Shown: positions 15,697 to 54,866 of the stretch, piece by piece
How the letters are laid out: the number at the start of each line of letters is the position of its first letter
Position numbering within the stretch: the first letter of the stretch is position 1
DNA from: Terriglobales bacterium
GTDB lineage: Bacteria; Acidobacteriota; Terriglobia; Terriglobales; Acidobacteriaceae
Assembly: GCA_025935035.1 (NCBI GenBank)
Contig: JAICWB010000001.1
Coordinates: 11,834-75,833 of the forward strand
DNA length: 64,000 bases
Reading direction: 5' to 3'
The notes under the pieces: model-generated
Told to the model about the DNA's origin: nothing
The model's input: the letters and a program-made list of their open reading frames with translations, nothing else
Databases searched by the model: none
Translations under genes and position numbers: made by a program

Positions 15697-15708
15697 CCGC
15701 CTAGCTTT

Positions 15709-15733: not shown

Positions 15734-15780
15734 TGGCGGGATGAAACTTCCTTAGCGCGGCGTTCAGCATCTGAGATTTT

Positions 15781-40875: not shown

Positions 40876-40926
40876 AATGACTTCTCCTTATTCCCCGTGC
40901 ATCCGTCCTAAACACTGAAACTGTTC

Positions 40927-41994
40927 TTAAACACTTGCCATTGACTTCGTGTTGCACTGAACCATGATCGCGTTCGGCAGCATATCCAACGACACAACCC
41001 TTTGCGCATAACCTCGCTCGATCGCTGCCTTGGGCATTCCGAACACCACGCAAGAAGCTTCATCCTGTGCGATCGTGACGGCTCCGTTGTCTCTCATCGC
41101 ACCCAGACCCTCGGCACCGTCTTCACCCATGCCTGTCATGATCACGCCGACTGCTCGAGGCCCAAATTCTTGCGCCACGGAATGGAAAAGTATGTCCACC
41201 GATGGCCGGTGCCCGTTCACGCGATCTTCATCGCTTAACAGGACCACGTCACCCAACGGCATCTTGCGCACGCGCATATGCTTGTTGCCCGGGCAGATCA
41301 GCGCGCGACCGGCTTGAAGAATGTCACCCGATTGCGCCTCTTTCACGTGTATCGCGCAAGACTCGTTGAGGCGTCGGGCAAACATCTCCGTGAAGCCTTC
41401 TGGCATGTGTTGCACCACCAATATCGTTCCCGGAAACTCCGCCGGCAATTTGCTGAGCAAGTCTTGCAACGCATTCGGGCCACCAGTCGATATTCCGATG
41501 GCAACCATGCGCGAGGGAGGTGCCGTAGGCGGCTGCGTTGCCTTCTGGATCTTGGGCAGCGAGAATGTAGGCGCAGTGTTGATGCGCGGTTGCGACTTGG
41601 CCGCTGCTTTGATCTTCGCGATCAACTCCGCGGCTATGTCCACCATGTGTGCCGAACTGCCGTCGCGTGGCTTCGCGACAAAATCGAATGCTCCCAGCGC
41701 CAAGGCCTTGAATGTTGATGATGCGCCTTCCTGGCTATGCGAGCTGACGATGATCGCCGGCAAATGGTGTTTGCGCGTGATATGACGCAGTGTCTCCATG
41801 CCATCCATGCGCGGCATCTCGAGGTCCACGGTCACCACATGCGGGCGCAGCTCTTCGATCTTCTTCAGTCCGAACTCGCCATCCATGGCTGTGCCCACAA
41901 CTTCGATCGACGGGTCTTGGGCCAGCATCTGCGAAATAAGCTTGCGCATCAGCGCTGAATCGTCGATCACTAAGACTCTCACCGGACTGCTCAT
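40927..41994 (-). CDS. cheB: Protein-glutamate methylesterase CheB
   Basis: REC domain plus a methylesterase domain with the Ser-His-Asp context (GISTGGP, VQHMPEGFT, TGMGEDGA). Confidence 0.9.
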   Translation of the reverse strand: MSSPVRVLVIDDSALMRKLISQMLAQDPSIEVVGTAMDGEFGLKKIEELRPHVVTVDLEMPRMDGMETLRHITRKHHLPAIIVSSHSQEGASSTFKALALGAFDFVAKPRDGSSAHMVDIAAELIAKIKAAAKSQPRINTAPTFSLPKIQKATQPPTAPPSRMVAIGISTGGPNALQDLLSKLPAEFPGTILVVQHMPEGFTEMFARRLNESCAIHVKEAQSGDILQAGRALICPGNKHMRVRKMPLGDVVLLSDEDRVNGHRPSVDILFHSVAQEFGPRAVGVIMTGMGEDGAEGLGAMRDNGAVTIAQDEASCVVFGMPKAAIERGYAQRVVSLDMLPNAIMVQCNTKSMASV

Positions 41995-44084
41995 GCCATG
42001 GCTCCTGCGCTTTTGATATCTTGCGTTCTTGCCCGGCCCAACTTTGAGACCACAGCTTGCACGTCTAAGATCAGGACCACAGTCCCATCGCCCAAGATGG
42101 AAGCGCCACTGACTAGTTCGGTCGATACCAAGTGATGGTCGAGCGCTTTGATGACCAGTTCTTCTTCGCCTACGAGTTTGTCCACCAGCAATCCGAACTT
42201 CCGGTCGCCTATCGCGACAACTATCACAAATATCTTCGATGTCTTTTCCGCTTGCGCTGCCAACCGATTCAACCTCACCAAAGTCAACACTTCATTACGC
42301 AGGCGCAGAACTTCGTGCTGGTCCACTTTGTGTATCTCTGCCTCGGTGGCGCGAATGATCTCAACCACCGAAGTGAGTGGCACCGCATACAGCTTCTGGG
42401 CCGAGCGGAACATCAATGCCTTGATGATGGCCAGCGTGAGGGGCACCTTCAAGTAGAAGGTTGAACCCTGTCCGACCTCGGTCTCGATCGCGATCGAGCC
42501 TTTCAGGCGGTCTAGCACCGTCTTGACCACATCCATGCCCACGCCGCGCCCGGCAACCGACGTTATCTCCTCCGCAGTGCTCAATCCTGAATGAAAGATC
42601 AGATTGAGTGCTTCGCCTTCCGTCAGGTTCTTGGCTTCGCCCGCCTGGATAATCCCACGTTCGACTGCTTTCTTTACGACCTTTTCGCGATCAATACCGC
42701 GTCCATCGTCGGATACTTCGATCACCACGTTGTTGCCCTGGTGATAGGCGTTCAGTTTGATAGTGCCGAAGCGCTCTTTGCCGGCCGCAACCCGTTCGTC
42801 GGGACTCTCAATGCCGTGGCTGATCGCATTGCGCACCAAGTGCGCCATGGGCTCGGCCAGCGTGTCGAGAATGCTCTTGTCGAGGTCCGTAGTTTGTCCT
42901 GCGAGTTCTAGCCTGACCTCGCGCCCGCAGGCTTTCGCCACATCGCGCACAATGCGTCCAAAGCGCCGGAAAAGTTGTTCCACCGGCACCATTCGGACTT
43001 TCATCACCGATTTTTGCAGGTCCGCCAGCACTCGTGCCTGAAAACCGAGTACATCCGCGAACTTCGCATGCAGCGGATCCCGTCCGAATTTCTTGTCAAA
43101 CTCGCTGATGCTTTGCGTCAGCATTGATTTTCCGATGATCAGCTCGCCGACAAGGTTCAGCACGGCGTCGATCTTTTCCGCGTCCACACGCAGTGTACTT
43201 TCCGGTGCCGCGCTGATCGATGCCGCACCGATTTCGGGTTCGCTCTCGCTAGCTACTTCCTCAACAGGAAGGGAAGCGTTGGCTTTGGTTGTGACCACCT
43301 CTTCTACAACTGGTGCCGCAACCTGCGCGGCGTCGGCAGCCCCGAAGCGCTCCACGAAGACATCGCAGATGACCATAGGAATGCGGCATTTCTTTGCAAT
43401 ATGTGTTTCGTCGAAGCTGCTCGCGATTGCCGCGAACAGGTTATCCACCTTTTCCATGCTCGCCGCATCTTCCGGCAACATGAGCAGCACAGTGCCCAAG
43501 TCCTGGAAGGTGTTTTTCACCATCTGCCATGCTATCGCGCGCGTGTTGCAGTTCGGATCGACGGCCAGAGAGACCTGTAAAACCTTCAAGCCCCGCCGTC
43601 CTGCATCTTGCAGCAGGATCTTTTCGTATTCTGACCACTCAAACGTTTCTATCGCCTTCTTCGCCGGCGTTAGAACGACCAATTCCGGAGCTTCAGTCTT
43701 GCTCACCAGCGCCCGGATCTCGTCTAACAGTCCCGCTCCACTCGACGGTTCCGCGTTCTTCCGATAAGCCCGCAGCATGTCTTGAAAAATATCGGCAGCG
43801 CTCAAAACGACTTCTGCTACACGCTTGCCGCGTGCCTTTGCCAATTCGGGCGTCAACGCATCTTCAAGTTCATGAGCAAGATCGCTGAGAGCGGTATAAC
43901 CGCATGCGGCAGAATCTCCCTTGAGGGTGTGCACAGTCCGGCGCACGGACCGCACCACCTCCGCGTCTTGCGGACGCCGTTCCAACTCCAAGCCTTGTTC
44001 ATTAAGCGCCTGGAGTAGCTCCGTAGCGCTTTCAAAGAACAAGTCTTTGAGTTCAGATACCCGATCTTCGGAGAAGAAGCTCAA
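41991..44084 (-). CDS. cheA: Chemotaxis histidine kinase CheA
   Basis: Hpt H-box HTLKGDSAA. N box HLVRNAISHGIE, G1 DDGRGID, G2 GRGVGMDVV. C-terminal CheW-like domain. It has 4-nt overlaps with cheR and cheB. Confidence 0.92.
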   Translation of the reverse strand: MSFFSEDRVSELKDLFFESATELLQALNEQGLELERRPQDAEVVRSVRRTVHTLKGDSAACGYTALSDLAHELEDALTPELAKARGKRVAEVVLSAADIFQDMLRAYRKNAEPSSGAGLLDEIRALVSKTEAPELVVLTPAKKAIETFEWSEYEKILLQDAGRRGLKVLQVSLAVDPNCNTRAIAWQMVKNTFQDLGTVLLMLPEDAASMEKVDNLFAAIASSFDETHIAKKCRIPMVICDVFVERFGAADAAQVAAPVVEEVVTTKANASLPVEEVASESEPEIGAASISAAPESTLRVDAEKIDAVLNLVGELIIGKSMLTQSISEFDKKFGRDPLHAKFADVLGFQARVLADLQKSVMKVRMVPVEQLFRRFGRIVRDVAKACGREVRLELAGQTTDLDKSILDTLAEPMAHLVRNAISHGIESPDERVAAGKERFGTIKLNAYHQGNNVVIEVSDDGRGIDREKVVKKAVERGIIQAGEAKNLTEGEALNLIFHSGLSTAEEITSVAGRGVGMDVVKTVLDRLKGSIAIETEVGQGSTFYLKVPLTLAIIKALMFRSAQKLYAVPLTSVVEIIRATEAEIHKVDQHEVLRLRNEVLTLVRLNRLAAQAEKTSKIFVIVVAIGDRKFGLLVDKLVGEEELVIKALDHHLVSTELVSGASILGDGTVVLILDVQAVVSKLGRARTQDIKSAGAMA

Positions 44085-44986
44085 CCCGCTACCTCAATAC
44101 GCTGATACGCCGTGCCGTTGTTGTCATGGATCATGCGGAACTTGTCGCTCAATCCGAATAACGACTCCGCATGCCCGATGAACAAATATCCATCCGGATT
44201 CAAACAACGATAAAACTTACTGATCAGCCGCTTCTGTTCTGCCTCATCAAAATAGATCATCACATTGCGGCACCAGATCACGTCATTACGCTGCGGCAAG
44301 AATTCAGTTTTCAGATTGTGAAAGTCGAATTGGACGAGTTCTTTCACTGACTTCTTGATCGCATATTTGTCGCCCACTTTGTCGAAGTAGCGCAGCCGAT
44401 ACGCGTAGTCCACCGGCTCCATATGATGGTCGGGATAAATGCCTTCCTGTGCTGCACGCAGCACTGAATAATTAATGTCTGAGGCGAGTATCTCCACCTT
44501 CCACGGCGGGGGAATGAGCGGCTTCGGCGATGGCATGTCGAAGGGAAGCGGATTTCGCAGGTAGTAGTAAGCCAGCGCGTCACAGACGATCATCGCCAGC
44601 GTATACGGTTCCTGGCCGGTCGAGCATCCCGCACTCCATATTCGCAGGCTGTAATCCCGACGCGCTTGCTTGCGGTTCAGGATATCTTCCAGCGTCTTCT
44701 TGTGGAACAGATCGATCTGCGGCTTGTTGCGAAAGAAACTCGTCTCATTGACGGTGAGGTTTTCCACCAAGGCGGCTAATTCGGCACGGCCTTCACGGCT
44801 GGTCAATAATTGATAGTAGCTGTAAAAAGAATTCAGGCCGGTTACCTTCAAACGGCGCTGCAACCGGTCTTGCAGAAAATGAACGCGGCGCTCGTCAAAG
44901 AACATGCCGCACTCCTGATAGACCAGGGTCTGCAGCAATTTCAATTCGGGTTCGGTAATGACCAGGTTCAAGCTGGGTGAAGCCAT
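44081..44986 (-). CDS. cheR: Chemotaxis methyltransferase CheR
   Basis: CheR N-terminal helical domain and SAM-binding motif IWSAGCSTGQEPYTLA. Confidence 0.9.
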   Translation of the reverse strand: MASPSLNLVITEPELKLLQTLVYQECGMFFDERRVHFLQDRLQRRLKVTGLNSFYSYYQLLTSREGRAELAALVENLTVNETSFFRNKPQIDLFHKKTLEDILNRKQARRDYSLRIWSAGCSTGQEPYTLAMIVCDALAYYYLRNPLPFDMPSPKPLIPPPWKVEILASDINYSVLRAAQEGIYPDHHMEPVDYAYRLRYFDKVGDKYAIKKSVKELVQFDFHNLKTEFLPQRNDVIWCRNVMIYFDEAEQKRLISKFYRCLNPDGYLFIGHAESLFGLSDKFRMIHDNNGTAYQRIEVAG

Positions 44987-45030
44987 AGTGTGTGCGTTCC
45001 CAATTCCAAAAAAAGTCGGTTCGTTTGCCG

Positions 45031-45495
45031 TTAAGCCATCGCGCCCAATTCACCCAGGCGCTTCAGTTCACCCTTTTGCAGAACTTTGGTGAGTTCCACC
45101 AGGATGATCAGCCGGTCTTTCAACTTGCCTACACCGGTCACATAATTCAGTTCGCCGTCTTCAAAAACATTCGGCGGATTGTCCACCTGGTCCGCAGCCA
45201 TGCGAAGCACCTCAGATGCCGAGTCCACGATGAGGCCCACCATCTTGCTCTCGACCTCGACCACAAGGATGCGGTTCTTTTTGCTCTGCGTGATCTCTTT
45301 TTCGCCGAAACGTTTTCGCAGGTCCACGATAGAGACGATCTTGCCACGCAGGTTGATGACGCCTTCCACGAACGCCGGCGCTTCCGGCACAGCCGTGATC
45401 TCAGGCACGCGCACTATCTCATGCACCAGCGAGATAGGCACTCCGAAAGTCTCACGTCCGATGCGGAAGCCGACTAGATGTAAGTCCTTCGCCAT
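45031..45495 (-). CDS. cheW: Coupling protein CheW
   Basis: 154 aa with a single CheW domain (ETFGVPISLVHEIVRVPEITAVP..FVEGVINLRGKIVSIVDLR). Confidence 0.9.
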   Translation of the reverse strand: MAKDLHLVGFRIGRETFGVPISLVHEIVRVPEITAVPEAPAFVEGVINLRGKIVSIVDLRKRFGEKEITQSKKNRILVVEVESKMVGLIVDSASEVLRMAADQVDNPPNVFEDGELNYVTGVGKLKDRLIILVELTKVLQKGELKRLGELGAMA

Positions 45496-45501
45496 TTCGT
45501 C

Positions 45502-47463
45502 CTAGTTTCTCGACGCAGCCGCGGCGTGATGCTTCGCGCCGTTGCCGTTCATGTTTGAATCCAACGCAAAGCGGTCCATGGAATCAAGCAATGTGCGCGC
45601 CATTTTCGACATCTGTTCTGAAGACGCTGCCAACTCGGTCGAGCCGGAAGTAGAGCGTTGCGTCAGCTCGCGCATCTTCTCCATCGCGCGAACAACTGCT
45701 TGCGCGCCCGAAGCCTGCTCTTCCACGGCGGAGTTGATCTCATGGGTGATCTCATTGAGACGCCCGGTGGCTTTTGCTATCTGCGTAGAGCCATTCGATT
45801 GTTCGTTGGTCGCCGCGCCGATCTCCTGCGCAAACTTGTAAACCTCAGTCACAACGTTGGATATCTTCTTCAGCGCTGCTCCGAGGTCGGTGCCAAGCGT
45901 CAGGCCTTCTTCCACGATGCCCGTGCTCTTATCCATGTTCTCAACAGCCTTGCGCGCTTCCTTCTGGATGCTGCCGATGAGTTCAGATATCTCACGCGTT
46001 GACTGCGCGGACTTCTCGGCCAGTTTGCGCACTTCGTCTGCGACCACTGCGAAGCCCAATCCATGCTCGCCGGCACGCGCAGCTTCAATGGCTGCATTCA
46101 AAGCCAGTAGGTTGGTCTGTTCGGCCAAGTCATCGATCACTTCCACGATCTTGCCGATATCATCCGTCTTCTGGCCCAAGTCACTGATGATCTGCGCGGA
46201 CGCGTCGATCGAATTGTTAATGCGCGTCAACCCATTCGTGGCTTTCTCCATGGTCACGATGCCGCTCTGCACTTCTTCACGCGATTTCTGCGAGATATCG
46301 AGCAACACGCGCGCTGTGTCCGCCACGCGCTGGATCGAAGCCACCATCTGGTCGATAGACGCCGAGGTCTCGCTAACGCTCGATGCCTGCGTCTGCGTGT
46401 TCTTCACCATGTTCTGCACGTTGATGCTCATCTCGTGCATAGTGCTGGTCACTTCGTCGATCGCCGTGGCGGCTTGCACGTTGATGCGCGCAGATTCGTC
46501 GGAAGCGGAAGCAACCTGGTTCGAGCCGCTGGCAACTTGCGAAGCTCCGTCGCGCACATTCTTCACCATCGTGCGCAAGCCGTGTGTCATCTCAGTGAAT
46601 GCGCTCGCCAACGTATCGCGAGTTGACCGTGCTTTCACATCCACGGTAAGGTCGCCACCCGCAATGGCTTCGGAAACTGCTGCCATCTCTCGCAGGTAAC
46701 TCACCATGTTGTTGAACGTCTTCGCCAGCTCGCCTATCTCATCCTCGCTGGAGATATTTACCGTCTGGTTCAAGTCGCCAGAATCTCCGATCTCGCGTGC
46801 TACGCTGATCAGATTCCCCAGCGGCTCAGTGATCTGTTTTGAGATCTTGAACGAGATGAATAATCCGCCCATGATCGTGGCCAGCATTCCGAGGATCGAA
46901 ACGGCCAATACTGAATTGCCGGCAGACTGACTTGTCGCCGCTTGCGAATCTGCAAGCTTTTTGATCTTCGTTTGTGCTTCAACGAGCGGAGCGCGTGAAC
47001 GCGTCAACCATTCATCCGGGCGCAGCCCCATATAGAAGATGCTGAGCTGGTCCATGGTCACATTGCCCGACTCCATCTGCTTCCGTTTCTCGGCCAGCGG
47101 ATCTACGAAATCGTTGTGCCACTTGCGTTCCGTGTCGAGAATATTCTGAAAACTCTTACGCAGATCTTCGTCAGGCGAATTGATGATCAGGTTCTGGACT
47201 TTCGTCTCAAGGTCTGATTGCCCTTTGCGGACATCGTCCAAGCCGCCGGGCACGCCTGTTAGCAGGTAGTAGCCCATGTTCTGATGGTTCTGCATCATCA
47301 GGAATCCCACTTCAGCAGTAGAACGCTGCATATCGAACAGTGTTTGCATCTTGTGCTGCGCCGCCGCGTCATATGCCAGCACGGACCAGGTGAAGATCGA
47401 CACGATCGTCACCAGTCCCAGCACCAGGCCGAATCCCCAATAAAGCTTTTTGCCGATTGTCAT
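45502..47463 (-). CDS. Methyl-accepting chemotaxis protein (4-helix-bundle-type periplasmic sensor, HAMP, MA domain)
   Basis: TM1, a ~170-aa periplasmic helical domain, TM2, then HAMP. Invariant signalling hairpin [39 protein letters not shown]. Confidence 0.92.
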
Positions 47464-47651: not shown

Positions 47652-47667
47652 TGCACGGTAGTTGCCA
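47652..47667 (-). promoter_or_regulatory. Candidate sigma-54 promoter for the Che1 operon
   Basis: The minus-strand sequence TGGCAACTACCGTGCA has the correct GG-N10-GC spacing (consensus TGGCAC-N5-TTGCW). It lies about 190 nt upstream of the MCP start at 47463. Confidence 0.35.
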
Positions 47668-47912
47668 AGTGCGCCGATGCTCGGCCTGTATTAGTAAACG
47701 TCCATTAGTCAGCTACTTACGCAATATCATTGAATCCTGCTGTGTAGGATAAGGCCGATTTTGAAGGCGGCATCTTGAGATTGTGTCTCACTATGAAACA
47801 GTGCCGGAATGTTACCTTCGTACCCTGTTCCGATCATCAATATCCTTGACTCATATTGAGATTCCGAACTATTGTCATCCCCTCTACCCGTGTTTCTTCA
47901 ACGACTTAAGGA

Positions 47913-50234
47913 GTGGGATTGAAAACGCCGGAACAAGAATCCAGCGCAGCGCTGTCTCGCGCGCAGGCTATTACCGAAATGGCGTTGGAGCTGGGCGTCT
48001 CACTCACCATCCCTGACCTATTGCAAGTCGTCTCACGCAGTTGTCTGAAGATGTTTCGACCGGCGGCGGTGCTCATCGCGCTGTCTCACAATCGTTCCCC
48101 GGAAGCGGTTCTGCTTGCCACCGGGCAGCAAGTTATCTCCGAACGCAAGTCTCTCGCCCGTTTTGATCAGGTGCTCGCGGATTTTCGCATCAAATCCACC
48201 GGCTCGATGGACTCCGTTGCCGCTAGTGACGTGTTAGGCCCTGATCTTATGCAGGGGCTTCAATGGTCAAAGTGCGCGATCGCCCGCATTGATGACAGCA
48301 ACGGACAACCGTTGGCCATGGTTTGCCTGGCGGACCCTGTCGAGGTTGACCAGGCGCTGTCGGCGGCGTTTTTGCGCCTCGTTTCTACGGCATTGGAGAA
48401 TTGCCGTCTTTTCTCGCAGATCACCCAGGCCAGCAAGCAGTGGGCTGAGATATTCGATTCGCTATCTGATTTCGTGGTTCTTCACGATGAGCAACACCGC
48501 GTGATGCGCGTGAATCGCGCGCTAGCTGATTTTATTGGCTCTCGGCCTCCGGAACTCATTGGCATTCATATGCGCGATTTACTGTCCAAAGGGAAAAATT
48601 CCGGCCTCCAGCCGTGCCCTTTCTGTTCGCAGAGCGCCCAAGGTGACGAATTTCGCCACCCTGCGTTGGACCGCTTTTATCTTTTGTCCACCTCGCGCGT
48701 GCGCGGCGCATTGAACGAAAGCTCGCAGACGATACACGTTCTCCGCGACATCACCGATCGTCGCGAAGCCGAGCGCCGCTATCAGCAATTATTTGACAAC
48801 GTACAGGAAGGTGTCTTTTTCTCCACTCCGGCAGGTCGTTTCCTCGAGGTCAATGACGCTCTTGTCACCATGCTTGGATATCGCAGCAAAAAGGAGTTGC
48901 TGGCCATTGATATTCCCACGCAGCTTTACTTGTCTGTCGATGACCGGATTCGCACTCAACACGCCATGGCGCCCACCGGGGAGCTGAAACAGAAAGAGAC
49001 TCACTTCCGCCGTAAGGACGGCTCGCTCATGCCGGCACTGGTCAACTCTTTCGCGGTTCGAAACACCGCCGGTGAAGTGGTGCAATATCGCGGCATGATC
49101 TTTGACATGAGCGAGATCAAGCGCTTCCAGACGCAATTGCAGCGCGAGCGCGATTTCAATCTGCAGATTCTTAACAATACGCAGAACATGATCCTCGTCG
49201 CCGACACTGCCGGCCTCGTCAGCTATGCGAATAGGCGTTGTTTCGTTCCGCAGGCTTACGGCAATACCGAGCTTGTCGGTCACAAGATCTCGAGCCTCGT
49301 CGAGCCTGCGGACCGTGAGTCATGGGATTGCGCCTTTGACATGGCGCTACAGGGCCAGCCGGTCGACAATCTGGAAGCGCAAATGATTCTCGGCGATGGC
49401 GCTGTTGGTCTCTTCTCCGTGAACCTGAGTCCCATGCGCGACCAAGCGGACCTGGTCACAAGCGTAGTCATCGTCATGACGGACATCACCGAGGCCGCCT
49501 TAATACAAGCGAAACTGATGAATACCGAAAAGCTCGCCGCAGTCGGCCAGTTGGTCTCGGGCGTAGCCCATGAAGTGAACAATCCCCTCACTGCCATCAT
49601 GGGCTTCGCTGACCTGATGCTTGAGAATCCAGAATTGCCGCAATTCGCGCACCAGGATCTGCAAGTCATCATGAAGGAAGCTGAGCGAACGAAGGAAATA
49701 GTTCAAAATCTTCTGAGCTTTGCCCGGCAGACTCCGCCACACCGTACCAACGTAGATGTGAACGCCGTTCTTCGCCGCACGCTCGCTTTGCGGGCATATG
49801 ACCTATCGAGTCATGGCGTCGAGATCGTCGAAGATTTCGCCAACGACCTGCCGCAAACTGTTGGCGATGAGCAGCAACTGGTTCAAGTGTTCCTGAACAT
49901 CCTCAACAACGCCTATGACGCGGTCATCGAGACAAGCAGCAAAGGCCGTATCCAGATCTCCACGTCACTCGCCGGCGCGAATGTTGTCGTCGAGTTCAAA
50001 GATAACGGGCCTGGGGTAAGTAATATCGAAAAGATATTTGATCCTTTCTTCACCACGAAACCTGTAGGCAAGGGAACTGGGCTTGGACTCAGCATCTGCT
50101 ACGGCGTGATCCGTCAGCACGGAGGCGAAGTGCATTGTCAAAACAATGCGAATGAAGCGGGCGCAACATTCATCATCAAACTGCCGATTCAGCCGAAGGC
50201 CGCCGCAGCCACTGTCGCGAGGGCCACGGCATGA
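47913..50234 (+). CDS. Cytoplasmic multi-sensor histidine kinase (GAF-like + PAS repeats + HisKA + HATPase)
   Basis: No TM segments. The N-terminal region is GAF-like and there are at least 2 PAS blocks (..RYQQLFDNVQEGVFF.., ..NLQILNNTQNMILVAD..). H-box SGVAHEVNNPLTAI. ATPase motifs NILNNAYDA, DNGPGV, GKGTGLGLS. The likely start is TTG at 47919, 5 nt after AAGGAG, rather than GTG at 47913. Confidence 0.85.
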   Translation: MGLKTPEQESSAALSRAQAITEMALELGVSLTIPDLLQVVSRSCLKMFRPAAVLIALSHNRSPEAVLLATGQQVISERKSLARFDQVLADFRIKSTGSMDSVAASDVLGPDLMQGLQWSKCAIARIDDSNGQPLAMVCLADPVEVDQALSAAFLRLVSTALENCRLFSQITQASKQWAEIFDSLSDFVVLHDEQHRVMRVNRALADFIGSRPPELIGIHMRDLLSKGKNSGLQPCPFCSQSAQGDEFRHPALDRFYLLSTSRVRGALNESSQTIHVLRDITDRREAERRYQQLFDNVQEGVFFSTPAGRFLEVNDALVTMLGYRSKKELLAIDIPTQLYLSVDDRIRTQHAMAPTGELKQKETHFRRKDGSLMPALVNSFAVRNTAGEVVQYRGMIFDMSEIKRFQTQLQRERDFNLQILNNTQNMILVADTAGLVSYANRRCFVPQAYGNTELVGHKISSLVEPADRESWDCAFDMALQGQPVDNLEAQMILGDGAVGLFSVNLSPMRDQADLVTSVVIVMTDITEAALIQAKLMNTEKLAAVGQLVSGVAHEVNNPLTAIMGFADLMLENPELPQFAHQDLQVIMKEAERTKEIVQNLLSFARQTPPHRTNVDVNAVLRRTLALRAYDLSSHGVEIVEDFANDLPQTVGDEQQLVQVFLNILNNAYDAVIETSSKGRIQISTSLAGANVVVEFKDNGPGVSNIEKIFDPFFTTKPVGKGTGLGLSICYGVIRQHGGEVHCQNNANEAGATFIIKLPIQPKAAAATVARATA

Positions 50235-50620
50235 GCGCCGGTCCCGCACTGCAGCAATATCCGCTGCTTGTCATTGAGGATGAAGCCTCTGTGCAAGCCT
50301 TCTTGCGGGCTGCGCTATCTCGCAACGGGTTTCAATTCGAGATCGTCGGTTCCGGCGCCGAGGGCCTCGAGCGGCTCAAGACAGGCCAGTACTGCGGGGT
50401 GCTTTCAGACATGCGCACTCCCGGCGGCGTCGATGGTGCTGATGTTCACTCCTGGCTGCGCGCAAACCAGCCCAGCCTCATTCCGCGCATGCTCTTCATC
50501 ACCGGTGACATTGTGAATGAGGAGACCCGACGTGTGCTTCAGACTACCGGTGTGCCCTGTATCGAAAAACCATTTCGCGTGAACGAATTGATCAACGCGA
50601 TCAGAAAAGTGTTGGGATAG
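50231..50620 (+). CDS. Single-domain response regulator (receiver only)
   Basis: REC with intact acidic pocket (VIEDE) and phospho-Asp (VLSDMRTPGGVDG), T (ITGD) and K (EKPF). The start overlaps the kinase stop (ATGA). Confidence 0.8.
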   Translation: MSAGPALQQYPLLVIEDEASVQAFLRAALSRNGFQFEIVGSGAEGLERLKTGQYCGVLSDMRTPGGVDGADVHSWLRANQPSLIPRMLFITGDIVNEETRRVLQTTGVPCIEKPFRVNELINAIRKVLG

Positions 50621-50623
50621 ACC

Positions 50624-52012
50624 ATGGATGACATCAAAAGCCGTTTCCTCATCGTCGACGACGACAAAAACATCCGCCGCCTCTGCATGACGGTCGGCTC
50701 ATCACTAGGCCTCATCGTTACTGAGGCTGAGAGCACCGAGTCCGCGCTTAACCAGATCGAACTTCATTCGCCCGACATCATCCTGGCCGATCTCATGATG
50801 CCGCAGATGACAGGACTTGAATTCCTCGAGCAAGTGAAAAAGCTGTTGCCGCACACCGAAGTCGCCATCATGACCGGCCACGGCAGCATAGAAACGGCCG
50901 TGCGCGCTATGCGCATGGGCGCTTACGACTTCATCACCAAGCCGTTCCGCATCGAGGAATTGAAACTGCTTCTCACGCGCATGGAAGAGAAAGTAAAACT
51001 GGTCGCCGAGAACCAATTCCTACGTGAACGAGTCACCACCGACACGAATTTAAACGGCGTCACCGGCTCCTCTCCCAAGATCCAGGATGTGTTGCGCATG
51101 GTCGCGCGCCTCAAAGACACGCGCACTCCGGTGCTGATCACCGGCGAGAGCGGCACAGGCAAAGAACTCGTAGCGCGCGCCATCCACTATCGCGGCACGC
51201 TAGCCAAGCGTCCATTCGTTGCCGTGGACTGTGGCTCGCTCGTCCCCACGTTGATCGAAAGTGAGCTGTTCGGGTATGAGAAAGGCGCGTTCACTGGCGC
51301 GCTGCGTGGAAAAGAAGGTCTCTTTCAAGCCGCCAACGGCGGCACCATTTTCTTAGACGAGATCGGCGAGCTTCCGCTGGAGATGCAGGCCAAGCTCTTG
51401 CGCGTCCTGCAGGAAAAAGAAGTGCGCCCCGTCGGCAGCAACGAGCGAGTGAAGATTGACGTCCGCGTCATAGCCGCCACTAATCGCGATCTGGAGCAAG
51501 CCTACAAAGACGGAACCTTCCGCAAGGATCTCTTCTTCCGCCTCAACGTAGTTTCCATTCACACGCCGCCACTTCGTGAACGCAAGTCGGATATTCCATC
51601 CCTCGTGCAATGGTTCCTTGAGAAGAGTGCGCCTCAACGTGTAGTCCACGTTTCCACCCAAGCCATGAAGCTGATGCTCGACTACGACTGGCCAGGCAAC
51701 GTCCGTGAACTCGAAAATTGCGTCGAACGCGCGGTGGCGCTCGGTGCAGACAGCGTTCTAGACGTCGCCGATCTCACTCCCGCCATCCGTGCGGGACAGC
51801 CCGGCGTTCCCCAGATCGCGCTCGCCACAGCGAATACAACTTCGTCTGACCTCGAAGAACTCGAGCGGGAAACCATCCAACGCGTCTTCGATCAAGTCGG
51901 TGGGGACAAGACCGCTGCCGGAAAAATTCTGGGTATCAGCCGTGCCACGCTTTACCGCAAGTTGAAGCGTTACAACATCACCCAAGCCAAAGCCATGACA
52001 GCAACTGCCTAA
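50624..52012 (+). CDS. Sigma-54-dependent response regulator (NtrC family)
   Basis: REC (IVDDD.. ILADLMMPQMTG), Walker A GESGTGKE, GAFTGA (YEKGAFTGA), and a C-terminal Fis-type HTH (AAGKILGISRATLYRKLK). It starts 3 nt after the receiver gene. Confidence 0.9.
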   Translation: MDDIKSRFLIVDDDKNIRRLCMTVGSSLGLIVTEAESTESALNQIELHSPDIILADLMMPQMTGLEFLEQVKKLLPHTEVAIMTGHGSIETAVRAMRMGAYDFITKPFRIEELKLLLTRMEEKVKLVAENQFLRERVTTDTNLNGVTGSSPKIQDVLRMVARLKDTRTPVLITGESGTGKELVARAIHYRGTLAKRPFVAVDCGSLVPTLIESELFGYEKGAFTGALRGKEGLFQAANGGTIFLDEIGELPLEMQAKLLRVLQEKEVRPVGSNERVKIDVRVIAATNRDLEQAYKDGTFRKDLFFRLNVVSIHTPPLRERKSDIPSLVQWFLEKSAPQRVVHVSTQAMKLMLDYDWPGNVRELENCVERAVALGADSVLDVADLTPAIRAGQPGVPQIALATANTTSSDLEELERETIQRVFDQVGGDKTAAGKILGISRATLYRKLKRYNITQAKAMTATA

Positions 52013-52107
52013 GCCGCAAGGCTGAGACAGCCGTCTCATAGTGAGAAACGAGACGCTGCTCAAGCAATCACGGCCAGTAAAATCAGCAACTTACCGCTCA
52101 AAATATT

Positions 52108-52123
52108 TGGCTTATCGCTTGCA
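52108..52123 (+). promoter_or_regulatory. Sigma-54 (-24/-12) promoter
   Basis: TGGCTTATCGCTTGCA has GG (52109-10) and GC (52121-22) separated by exactly 10 nt. It matches 9 of the 11 specified positions of TGGCAC-N5-TTGCW. It lies 96 nt after the activator gene stop and 46 or 67 nt before the in-frame ATGs at 52170 and 52191. Confidence 0.6.
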
Positions 52124-52190: not shown

Positions 52191-53657
52191 ATGAGCACAG
52201 CGACCGTCAATCTGACTGAAGTAGCTGCAATGTGGCGCAATGCGCGCCGCCTTTACCCGATCTATTCCGCGCTGAACCAGCAATCTGGTTACGGACTGCA
52301 GCCCTGCCGCGATCTCGAAAGCCCCATCGACCGGTCCGATCCGGAAGTCGTTGAACGCGTCAAAGATTGGCTGAAACAGGTCGACACCCGCATTGAAGTG
52401 CATCAGATCCGGCAGCTTTTACAGACCACTCACATTGCCACTGAAGATGGTTTGCGCGCTTTGTTGACTCGCGAATTGCGCAAGGAGCCAAAGGACAACA
52501 CCGTCCGCGACAAAGTCGACTACATGCTCGTGCAGTATTACGCCTTTTGCTCTCCGGACGACGCGCACGCCTCCACCATCGACTTCACCCATGTCTCTCA
52601 AGTTCTGCGGCCCGTCTTGGGCGAAGTCTCACGCGTGGTGCCGGAGTTCTGCAGCGAACTCGACAACATTCTGACCCAGCTCGACCATTGCGCCTCTCTC
52701 GGTGACTTACTCAACAAGAAGATCATTGACAAAGCCCGCGCCATGAAAGACCAGGCGGGCGCCGAATATTTCAAAGCATCGGTCCTTGTCGCTTACGCGC
52801 GATTCAATTTTCTTATGCGTCGTGGATTCTTCCGCCTCATGCACGCCGACCTGCATGCCATCCGCTTCGCACTTCATGCGATGGAAGGCCGCGGACAGCA
52901 CTCATGCGATTGCACCGCCGTCGGCCTTTCAGCCGACCAGAACTTCGCTGAACTGCGCGAGATCTGTCACGACTGGAAAAAGCCATTTCGCGCCGCCTAT
53001 TCGCTCGGCAATACCTTTGAGCAGTTGGTAAAGATTCGCGCGGCGGTTGAAACAGCAATGGCGAAGCCATTGCCGTCGCCAAAACCCATTGCTCCAATTG
53101 CACCGGTGGCAGCCGCAGCCGCGCCAGCCCCTCAAGTGGCAAAACCGGCGCCAGTCACTACTCCCGCGCCCGCCAAACCCGCAGCCCAGCCTTCCGCTCC
53201 ATTTGCTGTAGCGCCGCAGACGGTCAAAACCGCCGCTCCAGTCGCAAACGTGGGAAGCAATTCCGCGGTGGACGAATGCATCTCGCAGATTCATATCGCC
53301 GTCTCCACGATTCCGGTCAAGAACGCGGCGATGTGTTCTTTCGCTCTAAAAGGAACGAAGCTCATATTGGCCTCATGGGAAGTAGTTGCGTTCCAGAAGC
53401 CGAATAGCCCCGCAGCCATTCCGGTACAGCAAGCAGTCGCTTCGCGCGTGCTTCTGATTCAAGCAGTGGAAGCGCGCAAGCGCGGCGAAGCGGTCGATGT
53501 TCGCGCAGCTATCGCGCAAGCCCATAGCCAGGCCGCGCATCTCCAGGCTGAGATCGCCACTGCTAAAGATCGCAAAGACATTGATACCGCGGTCAACTTA
53601 TCGGCAACCGCCAAACGACTGCTCGCCTTGGTCGAGCAGGCAGAAAAGGGCAAATAG
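52191..53657 (+). CDS. Hypothetical protein, no recognisable domain (N-domain, Ala/Pro-rich linker, C-domain)
   Basis: Long ORF with coding-like composition. I chose ATG 52191 (or 52170) because the sigma-54 promoter lies inside the 5' extension of the track ORF. The A/P-rich linker is encoded at about 53070-53230. The C-terminus is helical. Confidence 0.65.
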   Translation: MSTATVNLTEVAAMWRNARRLYPIYSALNQQSGYGLQPCRDLESPIDRSDPEVVERVKDWLKQVDTRIEVHQIRQLLQTTHIATEDGLRALLTRELRKEPKDNTVRDKVDYMLVQYYAFCSPDDAHASTIDFTHVSQVLRPVLGEVSRVVPEFCSELDNILTQLDHCASLGDLLNKKIIDKARAMKDQAGAEYFKASVLVAYARFNFLMRRGFFRLMHADLHAIRFALHAMEGRGQHSCDCTAVGLSADQNFAELREICHDWKKPFRAAYSLGNTFEQLVKIRAAVETAMAKPLPSPKPIAPIAPVAAAAAPAPQVAKPAPVTTPAPAKPAAQPSAPFAVAPQTVKTAAPVANVGSNSAVDECISQIHIAVSTIPVKNAAMCSFALKGTKLILASWEVVAFQKPNSPAAIPVQQAVASRVLLIQAVEARKRGEAVDVRAAIAQAHSQAAHLQAEIATAKDRKDIDTAVNLSATAKRLLALVEQAEKGK

Positions 53658-53661
53658 ACTC

Positions 53662-54435
53662 ATGTTCTCTGACGACAGGTTCATGCAAGACCGCGTAGTG
53701 CTGGTGCTAGCGCAGTCGCCTGCCTTTGCTCAAGCTTTAGTCGCTCGTTGGCAGAACATTTCATCCGCGCCGGCATTCACCGTCATCACCTCAGCGGATG
53801 CCACTTCTCACAACGGCAGCCAGTACAAAGCCTGCCATATGGTCATCGTCGAAGCAGCCGCTATCCACTCGCATCGAAATCTATTGCAACGCCTCGACGC
53901 GGTCGGCACGCCGGTCATCTGCGCATTGCCCATCGCGGCTTCTCGTAACGCTCGTTCGAACTCGCACGGCCCGGAACCGATCGTTTTCTCGCCGACGGCC
54001 GACCAACTCCGCGCAGATTTTCCGCGCATGATCACGCTCAACCTCATCGACCGCGAGTCCGGCCTCGACACGTTAGTCACTCTCGCGATCGAAGTCCTGA
54101 AACGTATCGACGCTGTGCTTCGCGCCAAGAAGGCAGAATCCGACGCCGGCTCGCAATCCGCTCAACTCGCGCTGGGTAAATACGTTGCCGAATCGATGCA
54201 CGGTTTCAACAATGCGCTTACCGCCGTGCTCGGCAATGCCGAACTATTAATGTTGGAAACCTCAAGCCTTACGCCTCAGATGCAGGAAGAGATTGAGGCC
54301 ATTCATTCCAACGCCATTCGCCTGCACGAGATGATGCAACGCTTCTCGTCATTGGAAGCCGAGATCGAGGCCGGACGCAAACATGGTAAGAGTGCCGCTG
54401 CGGGAGGCACTCAGGCTTACCTTTCAGGTACCTAA
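53662..54435 (+). CDS. HisKA (DHp)-only protein with a degenerate receiver-like N-domain; candidate histidine phosphotransferase
   Basis: 257 aa from ATG 53662, which is 4 nt after the upstream stop. C-terminal H-box LGKYVAESMHGFNNALTAVLGNAELLMLE, with the His codon at 54199-54201. A second DHp helix follows, then only about 20 more residues, so no HATPase domain. The N-terminal ~150 aa have an alternating beta/alpha pattern (VVLVLAQSP.., HMVIVEAAA.., TPVICALP). Confidence 0.65.
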   Translation: MFSDDRFMQDRVVLVLAQSPAFAQALVARWQNISSAPAFTVITSADATSHNGSQYKACHMVIVEAAAIHSHRNLLQRLDAVGTPVICALPIAASRNARSNSHGPEPIVFSPTADQLRADFPRMITLNLIDRESGLDTLVTLAIEVLKRIDAVLRAKKAESDAGSQSAQLALGKYVAESMHGFNNALTAVLGNAELLMLETSSLTPQMQEEIEAIHSNAIRLHEMMQRFSSLEAEIEAGRKHGKSAAAGGTQAYLSGT

Positions 54436-54457
54436 GCTGTTCTCAGCAGAAGATTTA

Positions 54458-54486
54458 CAACTGCCAAGTGCTAGGCTTGGCAGTTG
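54458..54486 (+). other. Perfect 11-bp inverted repeat / hairpin
   Basis: CAACTGCCAAG (54458-68) and CTTGGCAGTTG (54476-86) with a 7-nt loop and no following T-run. It lies between the DHp-only gene and the PilH-like gene. Confidence 0.5.
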
Positions 54487-54506
54487 CGGAAAGTAGCAAT
54501 GGGTTC

Positions 54507-54866
54507 ATGAAAAAGATTCTTATCTGTGACGATTCGATAGCTGAGGTCAAACTCATGCAGTCCGTGCTTGAGAAAGCCGGATACTGCCCGGTCGTGACCC
54601 ACGATTCCACGCGCATCGAGCAGATGATCGACGTACAGCGGCCCAACCTCATCCTCTTGGATGTCGTCATGCCGCAACGCAATGGATTTCAAGTCTGCCG
54701 TGACCTTAAAGGACATGCAGAATACAGCCGCATCCCGGTCGTGGTGGTCAGTTCCAAAGACCAGGAGAGCGACAAGTTTTGGGCAAAGCAACAAGGCGCG
54801 GACGGCTACGTGGTAAAGCCCTTTACGCCAGAACAATTGTTGGGCGCGATAAAAGTTTTGGTTTGA
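54507..54866 (+). CDS. PilH-like single-domain CheY-family response regulator
   Basis: 120 aa from the internal ATG (MKKILICDDS). Intact REC residues (DD, LLDVVMP, VVSS, VKPF). The block SSKDQESDKFWAKQQGADGYVVKPF resembles the PilH/PixH-type signature as I recall it (TKDQETDKVWGKRQGARDYLTKP). Confidence 0.8.
   Translation: MKKILICDDSIAEVKLMQSVLEKAGYCPVVTHDSTRIEQMIDVQRPNLILLDVVMPQRNGFQVCRDLKGHAEYSRIPVVVVSSKDQESDKFWAKQQGADGYVVKPFTPEQLLGAIKVLV

What the first reader, a model, noticed from the sequence alone, without database searches (positions are those of the whole stretch)
53662..54435. Histidine-kinase DHp domain with no ATPase domain, fused to a receiver-like N-domain lacking the acidic pocket
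The C-terminal ~75 residues carry a canonical H-box (ESMHGFNNALTAVLGNAELL, His180) and a second helix. The protein then ends about 20 residues later, so it cannot autophosphorylate. The N-terminal half alternates short hydrophobic strands and helices like a flavodoxin/REC fold. However, it has E/A where the phospho-Asp would be (HMVIVEAAA).

This architecture recalls Spo0B/ChpT-type histidine phosphotransferases. Here it sits between a kinase/receiver/activator set and a chemosensory pathway whose CheA already has two Hpt domains. It could therefore bridge the two circuits or act as a dedicated phosphatase or sink.
Basis: partly seen in the sequence, partly recalled or inferred. Interest (0 to 1): 0.6.

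Follow-up and report, generated by a model that had tools for sequence, protein, structure and literature searches.

The report
Kinase-less histidine-kinase core, sigma-54 induced
This soil acidobacterial gene encodes the phosphate-handling helical core of a histidine kinase, with a dead receiver-like cap and no ATP-binding domain; the neighbouring kinase/activator system switches it on, so it most likely feeds back on that system by removing or moving phosphate.

Summary
Window 53662-54435 (+) encodes a 257-aa protein whose only Pfam hit is HisKA. It has no ATPase domain, and the next gene starts 71 nt after the stop. AlphaFold gives a receiver-like (beta-alpha)5 cap running into a DHp helical hairpin. 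The cap lacks the receiver active-site residues.

It is not a truncation. At least 136 clusters at 50% identity exist, all 272 aa or shorter, found only in one Terriglobales family. dN/dS is 0.06.

The family keeps His180 and Asn at H+4, the HisKA phosphatase residue. It has Gly/Ser at H+1, where CrdS E372G is kinase-dead but phosphatase-competent.

The gene always travels with the upstream PAS kinase, lone receiver and NtrC-type activator. It lies behind a conserved sigma-54 promoter with an activator palindrome and an IHF-like site. The Pil-Chp-like cluster follows in only 7 of 18 loci.

Best reading: a sigma-54-induced, kinase-less DHp acting on the adjacent system's receivers, most likely as a feedback phosphatase. 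A Spo0B/PhyT-like relay role is the main rival.

This scan already met the same family on other DNA (e1-3844883) and read it similarly. It is a new variant of a known kind, and the biochemistry is untested.

The parts
53662..54435 (+). Gene for the 257-aa kinase-less HisKA protein (the finding)
   Evidence: Open frame and translation. 252 homologues of 201-265 aa. dN/dS 0.057 against the 91%-identical orthologue.
53695..54045 (+). Pseudo-receiver, a (beta-alpha)5 domain, aa 12-128
   Evidence: AlphaFold secondary structure. Foldseek hits to receiver domains. No Response_reg hit in 107 members. hhalign against REC1 gives 0.5% probability. Acceptor Asp, T/S and K positions are not conserved.
54052..54255 (+). 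Continuous helix aa 131-198: alpha5 of the cap, coiled-coil stalk and DHp helix 1
   Evidence: AlphaFold, pLDDT 82-94 over this stretch.
54178..54348 (+). HisKA (DHp) Pfam match, aa 173-229
   Evidence: PF00512 at 27.6 bits, cut-off 26.9. hhalign to the adjacent kinase's DHp gives 88.5% probability.
54199..54213 (+). His180-Gly-Phe-Asn-Asn184: conserved His, non-acidic H+1, Asn at H+4
   Evidence: Column counts: H 106/107; H+1 G70/S25/N6/A2/D2/K1; N184 107/107. Functional meaning from Willett & Kirby 2012, PMC3510030.
54385..54432 (+). Disordered C-terminal tail ending in QAYLSGT
   Evidence: pLDDT below 50. The tail motif QAY[LVA]SG[ST] recurs at the very C-terminus in one clade only.
52107..52123 (+). 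Sigma-54 -24/-12 promoter (TTGGCTTATCGCTTGCA) in front of the unknown gene and this gene
   Evidence: Pattern TTGG-N8-KTGCW gives 3 hits in 64 kb. It is present on the gene strand in the activator-to-operon spacer of 13 of 14 loci. rpoN is present in the genome.
52023..52038 (.). Palindrome TGAGACAGCCGTCTCA, putative activator binding site, with degenerate extra half-sites at about 52041-52055
   Evidence: Conserved about 85-110 bp upstream of the -24 element in 13 loci. This palindrome type occurs only twice in the 64-kb window.
52081..52093 (+). IHF-like site AATCAGCAACTTA between the palindrome and the promoter
   Evidence: Matches WATCAANNNNTTR with one mismatch. An equivalent element lies at the same place in the other loci. 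The consensus is from established knowledge.
52191..53657 (+). Co-transcribed conserved protein of unknown fold (488 aa from the Met at 52191; searched and folded as a 495-aa query from the upstream in-frame ATG at 52170); its stop lies 4 nt before this gene's ATG
   Evidence: 290 homologues, no Pfam domain. AlphaFold pLDDT 87.6, with no PDB fold match at E<=0.001. Precedes the finding in 15 of 18 loci, the window's included; absent next to it in L019 and L028, and not detected in L025 only because the aligned consensus starts differ.
47913..50234 (+). Cytoplasmic PAS histidine kinase with intact HisKA and HATPase_c
   Evidence: Pfam. Best non-self match to the family's DHp profile in the genome, 30.6 bits against 25.8 for the next.
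50231..50620 (+). Single-domain receiver REC1 with intact Asp60, Thr91 and Lys113
   Evidence: Pfam. Conserved FITGD and a Cys at the aromatic switch position. Orthologue present in all TARGET-bearing genomes tested and absent from 5 of 5 without it.
50624..52012 (+). NtrC-type sigma-54 activator (REC, AAA+ with GAFTGA, HTH_8)
   Evidence: Pfam and the sequence.
47652..47668 (-). Second sigma-54 promoter facing the divergent Che1 operon
   Evidence: Pattern hit.
47776..47790 (.). Palindrome TGAGATTGTGTCTCA, about 110 bp upstream of the minus-strand sigma-54 promoter
   Evidence: One of the window's only two palindromes of this type.
54458..54486 (+). 12-bp-stem hairpin without a U tract, between this gene and the next receiver gene
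   Evidence: RNA fold of 54430-54510 gives -27.2 kcal/mol, z -2.2. The spacer is only 25 and 50 nt in L024 and L023, so the hairpin is not conserved.
54507..54866 (+). First gene of the Pil-Chp-like cluster (CheY/PilH-like receiver)
   Evidence: Pfam Response_reg at 84.9 bits.

Best explanation
The gene encodes a homodimeric histidine-kinase core without the kinase. It has a DHp four-helix bundle and a degenerate receiver-like cap, and no ATP-binding domain. It cannot autophosphorylate.

It belongs to the adjacent signalling unit of PAS kinase, lone receiver REC1 and NtrC-type activator. It is transcribed, together with an upstream protein of unknown fold, from a sigma-54 promoter. That promoter carries the activator's putative binding palindrome and an IHF-like site, so the protein is made when the activator is phosphorylated.

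Its invariant DHp surface then docks the system's receivers (REC1, the activator's receiver, or both). Asn184 (H+4), helped by His180, positions a water molecule that hydrolyses the aspartyl-phosphate. The result would be negative feedback on the activator that also drives the neighbouring chemosensory operons.

Shown here: the domain anatomy, the absence of a CA domain, family-wide conservation, gene linkage and co-occurrence, and conserved promoter architecture. Inferred: dimerisation, which receiver is bound, phosphatase chemistry and the sign of the feedback.
For: (1) The protein has HisKA only and no CA domain, and this holds across the family. No member of the top 150 of 1.84 billion representatives exceeds 272 aa.

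(2) The residue signature fits a phosphatase. H+1 is Gly, Ser, Asn or Ala in 103 of 107 and never Glu; H+4 is Asn in 107 of 107; His is present in 106 of 107. In CrdS, HK853 and two other HisKA kinases the H+1 acid is needed only for kinase activity. CrdS E372G is kinase-dead and phosphatase-competent. The H+4 Thr/Asn is needed only for phosphatase activity (PMC3510030).

(3) A CA-less HK853 has phosphatase activity in vitro, and the His helps position the water (PMC7005713).

(4) In this genome the adjacent kinase has the DHp closest to the family profile, among about 30 HATPase_c proteins.

(5) Kinase, REC1 and activator lie on the same contig upstream in all 18 loci examined, the window's included. 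REC1 orthologues are absent from 5 of 5 same-family genomes that lack the gene.

(6) The sigma-54 -24/-12 element, TGAGAC-N4-5-GTCTCA palindrome and IHF-like site are conserved upstream of the operon in 13 loci. rpoN is present.

(7) Sigma-54 promoters are silent without their activator (established knowledge). A gene expressed mainly from one fits a feedback accessory better than an obligatory upstream relay step.

(8) Purifying selection acts on both halves, with dN/dS of 0.071 and 0.038.
Against: No biochemistry exists for any member. The near-invariant His180 is what a phosphotransferase needs; a pure phosphatase would not strictly require it. REC1 has features of relay intermediates: FITGD resembles the FATGUY motif, and there is no aromatic switch residue (PMC9981736).

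The adjacent kinase itself has H-E-x-x-N and could act as its own phosphatase, so the need for a second one is unexplained. Phosphatase activity of CA-less HK853 is weaker without the nucleotide-bound CA domain. No terminator was predicted between the activator gene and the promoter. Read-through could therefore supply basal expression, which weakens argument (7).

The DHp tree does not resolve a sister relationship to the adjacent kinase. The roles of the pseudo-receiver and of the co-transcribed unknown protein are unexplained.
Confidence: 0.42

Rival explanations
1. The protein is a Spo0B/ChpT/PhyT-like histidine phosphotransferase. The kinase phosphorylates REC1, REC1~P passes the phosphoryl group to His180, and His180~P phosphorylates the NtrC-type activator (His-Asp-His-Asp). 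Sigma-54 control would then give positive feedback. The protein could also be bifunctional, as PhyT is.
For: His180 is present in 106 of 107 members. The locus has the four parts of a relay: a non-hybrid kinase, a lone receiver, a DHp protein and an output regulator. REC1 has conserved FITGD and lacks the aromatic switch residue, as do the receiver-only intermediates MrrA, SdrG and Sma0114 (PMC9981736). PhyT sets a precedent for an HK-like non-kinase that moves phosphate from a lone receiver to the output regulator (PMC5898713). Strict co-occurrence of REC1 with the gene. Monomeric Hpt domains need no acidic H+1 residue (own knowledge).
Against: An obligatory relay step placed behind a promoter that needs the relay's own output has a start-up problem, unless read-through occurs. 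The family-wide loss of the H+1 acid and the H+5 Pro differs from Spo0B and ChpT. ChpT keeps the proline kink; that both keep an acidic H+1 is from memory and was not checked here. There is no pseudo-CA domain, which helps receiver binding in ChpT. There are no Pfam matches to the SPOB_a, HPTransfase or Hpt families.
Confidence: 0.3
2. The protein is a pseudokinase inhibitor or modulator. It binds the adjacent kinase, by DHp heterodimerisation or lateral contact, or it sequesters a receiver. Signalling changes without any phosphoryl chemistry, as in RetS-GacS, RocA-CovS or FixT-FixL feedback.
For: In this genome its DHp is closest to that of the adjacent kinase. It is induced by the system's own activator, which is the logic of FixT-type feedback inhibitors (own knowledge). 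RocA is cited as a CA-deficient accessory of CovS (PMC7028121, listed but not read in detail).
Against: A pure binder has no need of an invariant His180, Asn183 and Asn184. The tree puts the family on a very long branch, 3.4 changes per site, away from the adjacent kinase clade. The long coiled-coil stalk and cap suggest a stable homodimer.
Confidence: 0.1
3. The protein connects to the chemosensory pathways. It exchanges phosphate with receivers of the Pil-Chp-like cluster (the next gene's CheY/PilH-like receiver, or the ChpA receiver) or of Che1. It would link them to the NtrC-type activator, in the spirit of Myxococcus Che3-CrdS-CrdA.
For: In 12 of 18 loci the gene is followed directly by chemosensory genes: the full cluster in 7, a lone CheR in 4 and an MCP in 1. 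A Che1-type operon lies divergently upstream in the window and, judged by its CheA, next to the module in five relatives searched genome-wide; an upstream MCP is also seen in several other loci. In the window both operons carry the same palindrome and a sigma-54 promoter. Che3 is known to regulate the CrdS-CrdA kinase and NtrC-like pair (PMC3147164, abstract).
Against: Six loci have no chemosensory gene after it. Five relatives have no ChpA orthologue anywhere yet keep the gene. The constant partners are REC1 and the activator. Che1 already encodes CheX.
Confidence: 0.1
4. The gene is an artefact or a decaying remnant: a histidine kinase truncated by a frameshift or an assembly error.
For: Only that HisKA domains normally come with HATPase_c.
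Against: 136 clusters at E<=1e-30, all 272 aa or shorter. 252 homologues of the same length. dN/dS 0.057. Only 71 nt separate the stop from the next gene. There is no HATPase_c signal in any frame nearby.
Confidence: 0.01

Closest known systems
Isolated DHp domains and the phosphatase mode of HisKA kinases (CrdS E372G, CA-less HK853, EnvZ domain A)
   Same: A HisKA four-helix-bundle core with the His and the H+4 Thr/Asn. A non-acidic H+1 gives kinase-dead, phosphatase-competent proteins (PMC3510030). A CA-less HK853 dephosphorylates its regulator in vitro (PMC7005713). The EnvZ domain A result is from memory and was not checked.
   Different: Those are engineered fragments or point mutants of complete kinases. 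This is a natural, conserved, free-standing protein with its own N-terminal pseudo-receiver and its own sigma-54 promoter.
Spo0B (Bacillus) and ChpT (Caulobacter/Brucella) dimeric histidine phosphotransferases
   Same: A DHp-type helical-hairpin dimer with a conserved His and no kinase activity. The locus context is a kinase, a lone receiver and an output regulator.
   Different: Spo0B and ChpT carry a C-terminal degenerate CA-like domain; this protein has none, and has an N-terminal pseudo-receiver instead. There is no family-level Pfam SPOB_a match (1 of 107 members, at E=0.08) and no HPTransfase match. It lacks the H+5 proline kink that ChpT keeps.
PhyT (formerly PhyP) of Sphingomonas melonis
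   Same: An HK-like protein without kinase activity that takes phosphate from a lone FATGUY-type receiver and also restrains the output regulator. It was first taken for a phosphatase (PMC5898713).
   Different: PhyT is membrane-bound, belongs to another DHp class and acts on PhyR in the general stress response. This protein is soluble, of HisKA type, capped by a pseudo-receiver, and wired to a sigma-54 activator.
LvrB of Leptospira (PDB 8vc9), a REC-DHp-CA hybrid response regulator
   Same: It is the best structural match (Foldseek E 2e-4). An N-terminal receiver fold has a last helix that runs straight into DHp helix 1.
   Different: LvrB has a phosphorylatable receiver and a CA domain. Here the receiver is dead and the CA domain is absent. 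TM-scores are low (0.36/0.27).
KaiA of cyanobacteria
   Same: An N-terminal pseudo-receiver joined to a C-terminal helical dimerisation domain. The KaiA N-domain appears among the fold hits (1m2e, rank 36).
   Different: The KaiA C-domain is not a HisKA and has no phospho-His. The resemblance is architectural only.
Myxococcus xanthus CrdS-CrdA with the Che3 cluster
   Same: A HisKA kinase and an NtrC-like sigma-54 activator functionally tied to a chemosensory cluster (PMC3147164, abstract).
   Different: No kinase-less DHp protein is described there. In that system CheA3 itself modulates CrdA.

Membership tests
HisKA (Pfam PF00512) phospho-acceptor/dimerisation domain | Score over the Pfam gathering threshold | tested here: met
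   27.6 bits against 26.9 at aa 173-229. 107 of 107 family members match at E<=0.1.
HisKA (Pfam PF00512) phospho-acceptor/dimerisation domain | Conserved phospho-acceptor His in helix 1 of a helical hairpin | tested here: met
   His180 is present in 106 of 107 members. The hairpin of helices 131-198 and 205-246 is seen in the AlphaFold model.
Functional histidine kinase | HATPase_c (CA) domain with N, G1 and G2 boxes | tested here: not met
   No HATPase_c hit in the protein, in 107 relatives or in the nearby DNA. No relative is longer than 272 aa.
Functional histidine kinase | Acidic residue at H+1, required for autophosphorylation | tested here: not met
   Gly here. Across the family G70/S25/N6/A2/D2/K1 of 107, never Glu. 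The requirement is from PMC3510030.
HisKA phosphatase-competent DHp | Thr/Asn at H+4 | tested here: met
   Asn184 in 107 of 107. Its role is from PMC3510030. Activity itself was not tested.
Spo0B family | SPOB_a helical domain plus a C-terminal alpha/beta (SPOB_ab) domain | tested here: not met
   SPOB_a matches only 1 of 107 members, at E=0.08. No C-terminal domain exists.
ChpT family (HPTransfase) | HPTransfase profile match and a degenerate CA-like domain | tested here: not met
   No such hit at E<=1 for the protein or E<=0.1 for the relatives.
Hpt domain (PF01627) | Monomeric four-helix Hpt profile match | tested here: not met
   No hit.
Response regulator receiver (PF00072) | Profile match | tested here: not met
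   0 of 107 members match. hhalign against REC1 gives 0.5% probability.
Response regulator receiver (PF00072) | (beta-alpha)5 fold | tested here: met
   AlphaFold topology. Foldseek hits to DctD, RssB, VanR, AdeR and other receivers at E 1e-3 to 1e-2. This rests on a prediction only.
Response regulator receiver (PF00072) | Acidic pair after beta1, acceptor Asp after beta3, T/S after beta4, Lys after beta5 | tested here: not met
   After beta1, D in 82 of 107 (Gln here). After beta3, G60/E20/D8. No conserved T/S or Lys.
Sigma-54-dependent, activator-driven promoter | GG-N10-GC -24/-12 element, upstream activator palindrome and an IHF-type site, conserved in position | tested here: met
   13 of 14 loci carry TTGG-N8-KTGCW on the gene strand. 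All 13 have TGAGAC-N4-5-GTCTCA and a WATCAANNNNTTR-like element upstream. rpoN is present.
Sigma-54-dependent, activator-driven promoter | Transcription start and dependence on rpoN and the activator | not testable with these tools

The most novel reading that the evidence does not exclude
The small conserved protein (lost in this genus), the unknown-fold protein with a conserved C-D-C...C-H cluster and the kinase-less DHp form a sigma-54-induced accessory unit. In it the unknown protein would sense a metal or redox cue and act through the pseudo-receiver cap to gate a free-standing DHp phosphatase/phosphotransferase. That would be a ligand-gated 'kinase-less kinase', coupling an NtrC-type circuit to chemosensory arrays. 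It could also explain why lone CheR or MCP genes stay attached to it after the rest of the che cluster is gone.
Probability: 0.12. Interest if true: 0.7.

Novelty: new variant of a known kind. Interest (0 to 1): 0.45.

Why it matters
Non-kinase DHp proteins are few and each was found case by case (Spo0B, ChpT, PhyT). This is a natural family that looks like the engineered kinase-off/phosphatase-on HisKA mutants. It is stripped of its ATPase, capped by a dead receiver, and placed under the control of the pathway it probably acts on.

If it is a phosphatase, it shows that bacteria evolve stand-alone DHp phosphatases as feedback devices for sigma-54 activators. If it is a relay, it is a minimal Spo0B analogue with no pseudo-CA domain.

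Either way it bears on annotation. The JGI source labels members 'signal transduction histidine kinase', which is misleading. It also matters for how poorly studied soil Acidobacteriota control chemosensory and pilus-type gene clusters. The value is moderate: the family is confined to one Terriglobales family, and the function is inferred only.

Tried and rejected
1. **Frameshift or truncation.** Rejected on family length, dN/dS and the absence of any HATPase_c signal.
2. **Sequence homology of the cap to real receivers.** None was found by Pfam on 107 members or by hhalign against REC1.
3. **PDB sequence search.** The protein and its profile gave only designed proteins and GroEL noise, and no solved kinase.
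4. **Origin by duplication of the adjacent kinase's DHp.** The tree puts the family on a 3.4-change branch inside an unresolved group that also holds four other kinases. The result is inconclusive.
5. **Identity of the co-transcribed unknown protein.** No Pfam or NCBIfam hit, and no PDB fold match despite a confident model.
6. **The small upstream protein of relatives as a PilZ domain.** Pfam gives no support, and it is absent from this genome by tblastn.
7. **The DHp or the unknown protein as a CheR methylation substrate.** By eye the conserved EQ/EE pairs do not sit in the MCP methylation consensus. The idea was dropped.
8. **The C-terminal QAYLSGT tail as a universal docking peptide.** It is present in one clade only.
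9. **A first sigma-54 pattern with the wrong spacing** found nothing and was corrected.
11. **Split kinase phosphorylated in trans by a CA-only protein.** No conserved CA-only neighbour exists, and the missing H+1 acid argues against it.
Full report
**Observation.** The frame 53662-54435 (+) gives a 257-aa protein. The ATG at 53662 lies 4 nt after the stop of the upstream gene, and homologues begin at the same Met.

Pfam finds only HisKA (PF00512), at aa 173-229 with 27.6 bits against a cut-off of 26.9. At E<=1 there is no HATPase_c, Response_reg or Hpt hit. NCBIfam gives nothing significant.

The stop is followed 71 nt later by a receiver gene at 54507. A genome-wide HATPase_c scan shows no signal between the adjacent kinase and the downstream CheA. 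The described architecture is therefore real.

**Not a truncation, but a family.**
- A word-indexed search found 252 relatives, essentially all 201-265 aa.
- An exhaustive profile search of 1.84 billion representatives found 136 clusters at E<=1e-30 and 276 at E<=1e-10. Every one of the best 150 is 272 aa or shorter.
- All 107 aligned members hit HisKA. None hits HATPase_c or Response_reg.
- Against the 91%-identical orthologue, dN/dS is 0.057. It is 0.071 in the N-terminal half and 0.038 in the C-terminal half.
- In a 301-genome sample of the phylum, strong matches occur only in the window's own GTDB family: 6 of 22 genomes, against none in the other families sampled. Among close relatives roughly 19 of 24 have a strong match.
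- Source names point to Terriglobales (Acidobacteriota).

**Anatomy.** AlphaFold with the 107-sequence alignment gives pLDDT 80.3.
- A (beta-alpha)5 domain spans aa 12-128, and its fifth helix continues as one 68-residue helix (131-198).
- A short hairpin follows, then a second helix (205-246) and a disordered tail.
- The best Foldseek match is LvrB (8vc9), a REC-DHp-CA hybrid regulator.
- Receivers with helical linkers follow (DctD, RssB), then many plain receivers and the KaiA and CpaE pseudo-receivers. E-values are modest and TM-scores low.
- By sequence the cap is not recognisably a receiver.
- The receiver active-site positions are not conserved. The acceptor position after beta3 is G 60, E 20 and D 8 of 107, and there is no conserved T/S or Lys.

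**The H-box.**
- His180 is present in 106 of 107 members. Asn183, Asn184, Thr187, Gly191, Asn192, Ala193, Glu194 and Leu195 are invariant or nearly so.
- Two canonical positions are systematically changed. H+1 is Gly, Ser, Asn or Ala rather than Glu/Asp, and H+5 is Ala rather than Pro.
- Willett and Kirby showed that the H+1 acid is required only for kinase activity, in CrdS, HK853 and two further HisKA kinases. CrdS E372A/D/G/Q are kinase-dead but fully phosphatase-competent.
- They also showed that the H+4 Thr/Asn is required only for phosphatase activity (PMC3510030).
- A CA-less HK853 retains phosphatase activity, and the His helps to place the attacking water (PMC7005713).
- The family therefore carries a natural kinase-off/phosphatase-on signature, on top of lacking the ATPase.

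**Which system it belongs to.**
- I ran tblastn of the window's proteins against loci from relatives, and read called genes on three metagenome contigs. The order PAS kinase, lone receiver (REC1), NtrC-type activator, unknown protein, this gene is conserved.
- The kinase/REC1/activator unit lies upstream on the same contig in all 18 loci, the window's included. It is directly upstream in 15 and separated by a 6-8 kb insertion in three (L022, L028, L029).
- REC1 orthologues (130-190 bits) are present in every genome that has the gene. They are absent at E<=1e-12 from five nearly complete same-family genomes that lack it.
- Within this genome, which has about 30 HATPase_c proteins, the adjacent kinase has the DHp closest to the family's profile: 30.6 bits against 25.8 and 18.7. 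hhalign gives 88.5% probability.
- A DHp tree puts the family on a very long branch inside an unresolved group that includes the adjacent kinases. Common origin is therefore not shown.

**How it is expressed.**
I tested it.
- The pattern TTGG-N8-KTGCW has three hits in the 64-kb window, no more than chance.
- The same element sits on the gene strand between the activator gene and the operon in 13 of 14 loci.
- In all 13, a palindrome TGAGAC-N4-5-GTCTCA with a further half-site lies about 85-110 bp upstream. An element matching the IHF consensus WATCAANNNNTTR lies in between.
- In the window this palindrome type occurs only twice. One copy is at 52023. The other is at 47776, about 110 bp upstream of a second, minus-strand sigma-54 element (47652-47668) that faces the divergent Che1 operon.
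- rpoN is present, and the activator has GAFTGA.
- The gene is thus very probably a regulon member of the adjacent activator, together with the chemosensory operons.

**Relation to the chemosensory clusters.**
- Che1 (MCP, CheW, CheR, CheA, CheB, CheY, CheX) lies divergently upstream.
- A Che1-type CheA lies next to the module in five relatives searched genome-wide. Those genomes have no ChpA orthologue at all.
- The Pil-Chp-like cluster follows the gene in 7 of 18 loci. These include the six that form one well-supported clade of the protein's tree (L027 was not in the tree).
- A lone CheR follows in four loci, an MCP in one, and nothing chemosensory in six.
- The 'bridge to ChpA' idea is therefore not general. 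The recurrent che neighbours may be remnants, or they may signal a real link.

**Mechanism.** The best-supported reading is a sigma-54-induced, kinase-less DHp dimer. It would dock REC1 and/or the activator's receiver and dephosphorylate it, giving negative feedback.

The main rival is a Spo0B/PhyT-type relay running from kinase to REC1 to His180 to activator.
- In favour of the relay: the near-invariant His, and REC1's relay-intermediate features, namely conserved FITGD and Cys instead of an aromatic switch residue (PMC9981736). PhyT provides a precedent (PMC5898713).
- Against an obligatory relay: the start-up problem of a sigma-54-only gene. Possible read-through from the upstream operon weakens this argument, since no terminator was predicted.
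- A bifunctional protein would reconcile the two readings.
- Binding-only inhibition and a che-directed role are less likely.

**Membership and novelty.**
- It is a HisKA-domain protein, not a histidine kinase, and not a member of the Spo0B, ChpT or Hpt families.
- It works most like the phosphatase mode of HisKA kinases, or like PhyT.
- The architecture (pseudo-receiver plus bare DHp) and the feedback wiring appear undescribed in the literature searched.
- This scan had already met the same family in another genome (e1-3844883, seen after my own analysis) and reached a similar reading.
- I rate it a new variant of a known kind, of moderate interest.

**Limits.**
- Structures are monomer predictions, and no multimer modelling was available.
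- Dimerisation, partner choice and chemistry are all inferred.
- Relatives are phylogenetically non-independent.
- The genome is 85% complete.

Noticed in passing
window 52191-53657 (+): The co-transcribed protein has a confident AlphaFold model (pLDDT 87.6). It shows a 300-aa all-helical domain, a disordered Pro/Ala linker and a 130-aa C-terminal domain. There is no PDB fold match and no Pfam domain. Nearly invariant H229, D247, C248, C266 and W269 (numbering of the 495-aa query that starts at 52170), in the motif ...CDC...ICHxWKKPF, suggest a metal or redox site.
   Followed up: partly
L013:6388-6738, L023:6134-6598, L024:6230-6613, L025:5853-6206; also L026, L027, L029: Many relatives have an extra conserved gene of about 100-120 aa between the sigma-54 promoter and the unknown-fold gene (consensus ...FFP..RIPV...VIEFGTPREV.F...DR.RL.N.DGSLDAEA.VVA...AARF...NWI.K). 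It has no Pfam hit. It is absent from this window and not found in this genome by tblastn.
   Followed up: partly
window 47652-47668 (-) and 47776-47790: A second sigma-54 -24/-12 element faces the Che1 operon and carries the same TGAGAY-N-GTCTCA palindrome about 110 bp upstream. One activator probably drives both chemosensory operons.
   Followed up: partly
window 50231-50620 (+): The lone receiver REC1 has strictly conserved FITGD after beta4, which resembles the FATGUY motif. It has Cys where the aromatic switch residue normally sits. These are features reported for receiver-only phosphorelay intermediates.
   Followed up: partly
window 54385-54432 (+): The disordered C-terminal tail ends in QAY[LVA]SG[ST] in the clade that also carries the Pil-Chp-like cluster. 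The other clade ends in small-residue tails such as RVAGAG. Its function is unknown.
   Followed up: partly
L016:8852-9715, L019 about 11011-11835 (-), L022 about 8841-9905, L029 about 15353-16549; L028:12463-13890: In four relatives a lone CheR methyltransferase follows the kinase-less gene directly, and in one relative a lone MCP does, with no CheA nearby. In L016 the next gene is uvrB on the other strand. These may be remnants of a lost che cluster or a real functional link.
   Followed up: partly
window 54458-54486 (+): A 12-bp-stem hairpin without a U tract lies between this gene and the next receiver gene (-27.2 kcal/mol for 54430-54510, z -2.2). It is not conserved: the spacer is only 25-50 nt in L023 and L024.
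   Followed up: yes
window 54304-54306 and 54325-54327 (His215, His222): Two histidines seven residues apart lie on DHp helix 2. His222 is 107 of 107 in the alignment, but Asn in L014. His215 is 100 of 107, but Arg in the che-less clade. His222 and Glu223 lie at about the height of His180 in the hairpin. This is unexplained.
   Followed up: no
L022, L028, L029 (genomes G015, G187, G218): A 6-8 kb insertion separates the activator gene from the kinase-less gene's operon in two genera. In G187 the unknown-fold gene is missing next to it. G022 (L019) also lacks the unknown-fold gene.
   Followed up: no
G000:C9:2499-3842 (+), outside the window: A 448-aa open frame has a DHp-like H-box in which Arg replaces the His (NVARDLTNPLTALFGY). 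It may be another pseudo-kinase in this genome.
   Followed up: no
window 39938-47463 (-): Che1 is a complete operon: MCP, CheW, CheR, CheA, CheB, CheY and a CheX phosphatase. This pathway therefore already has its own CheY phosphatase.
   Followed up: yes
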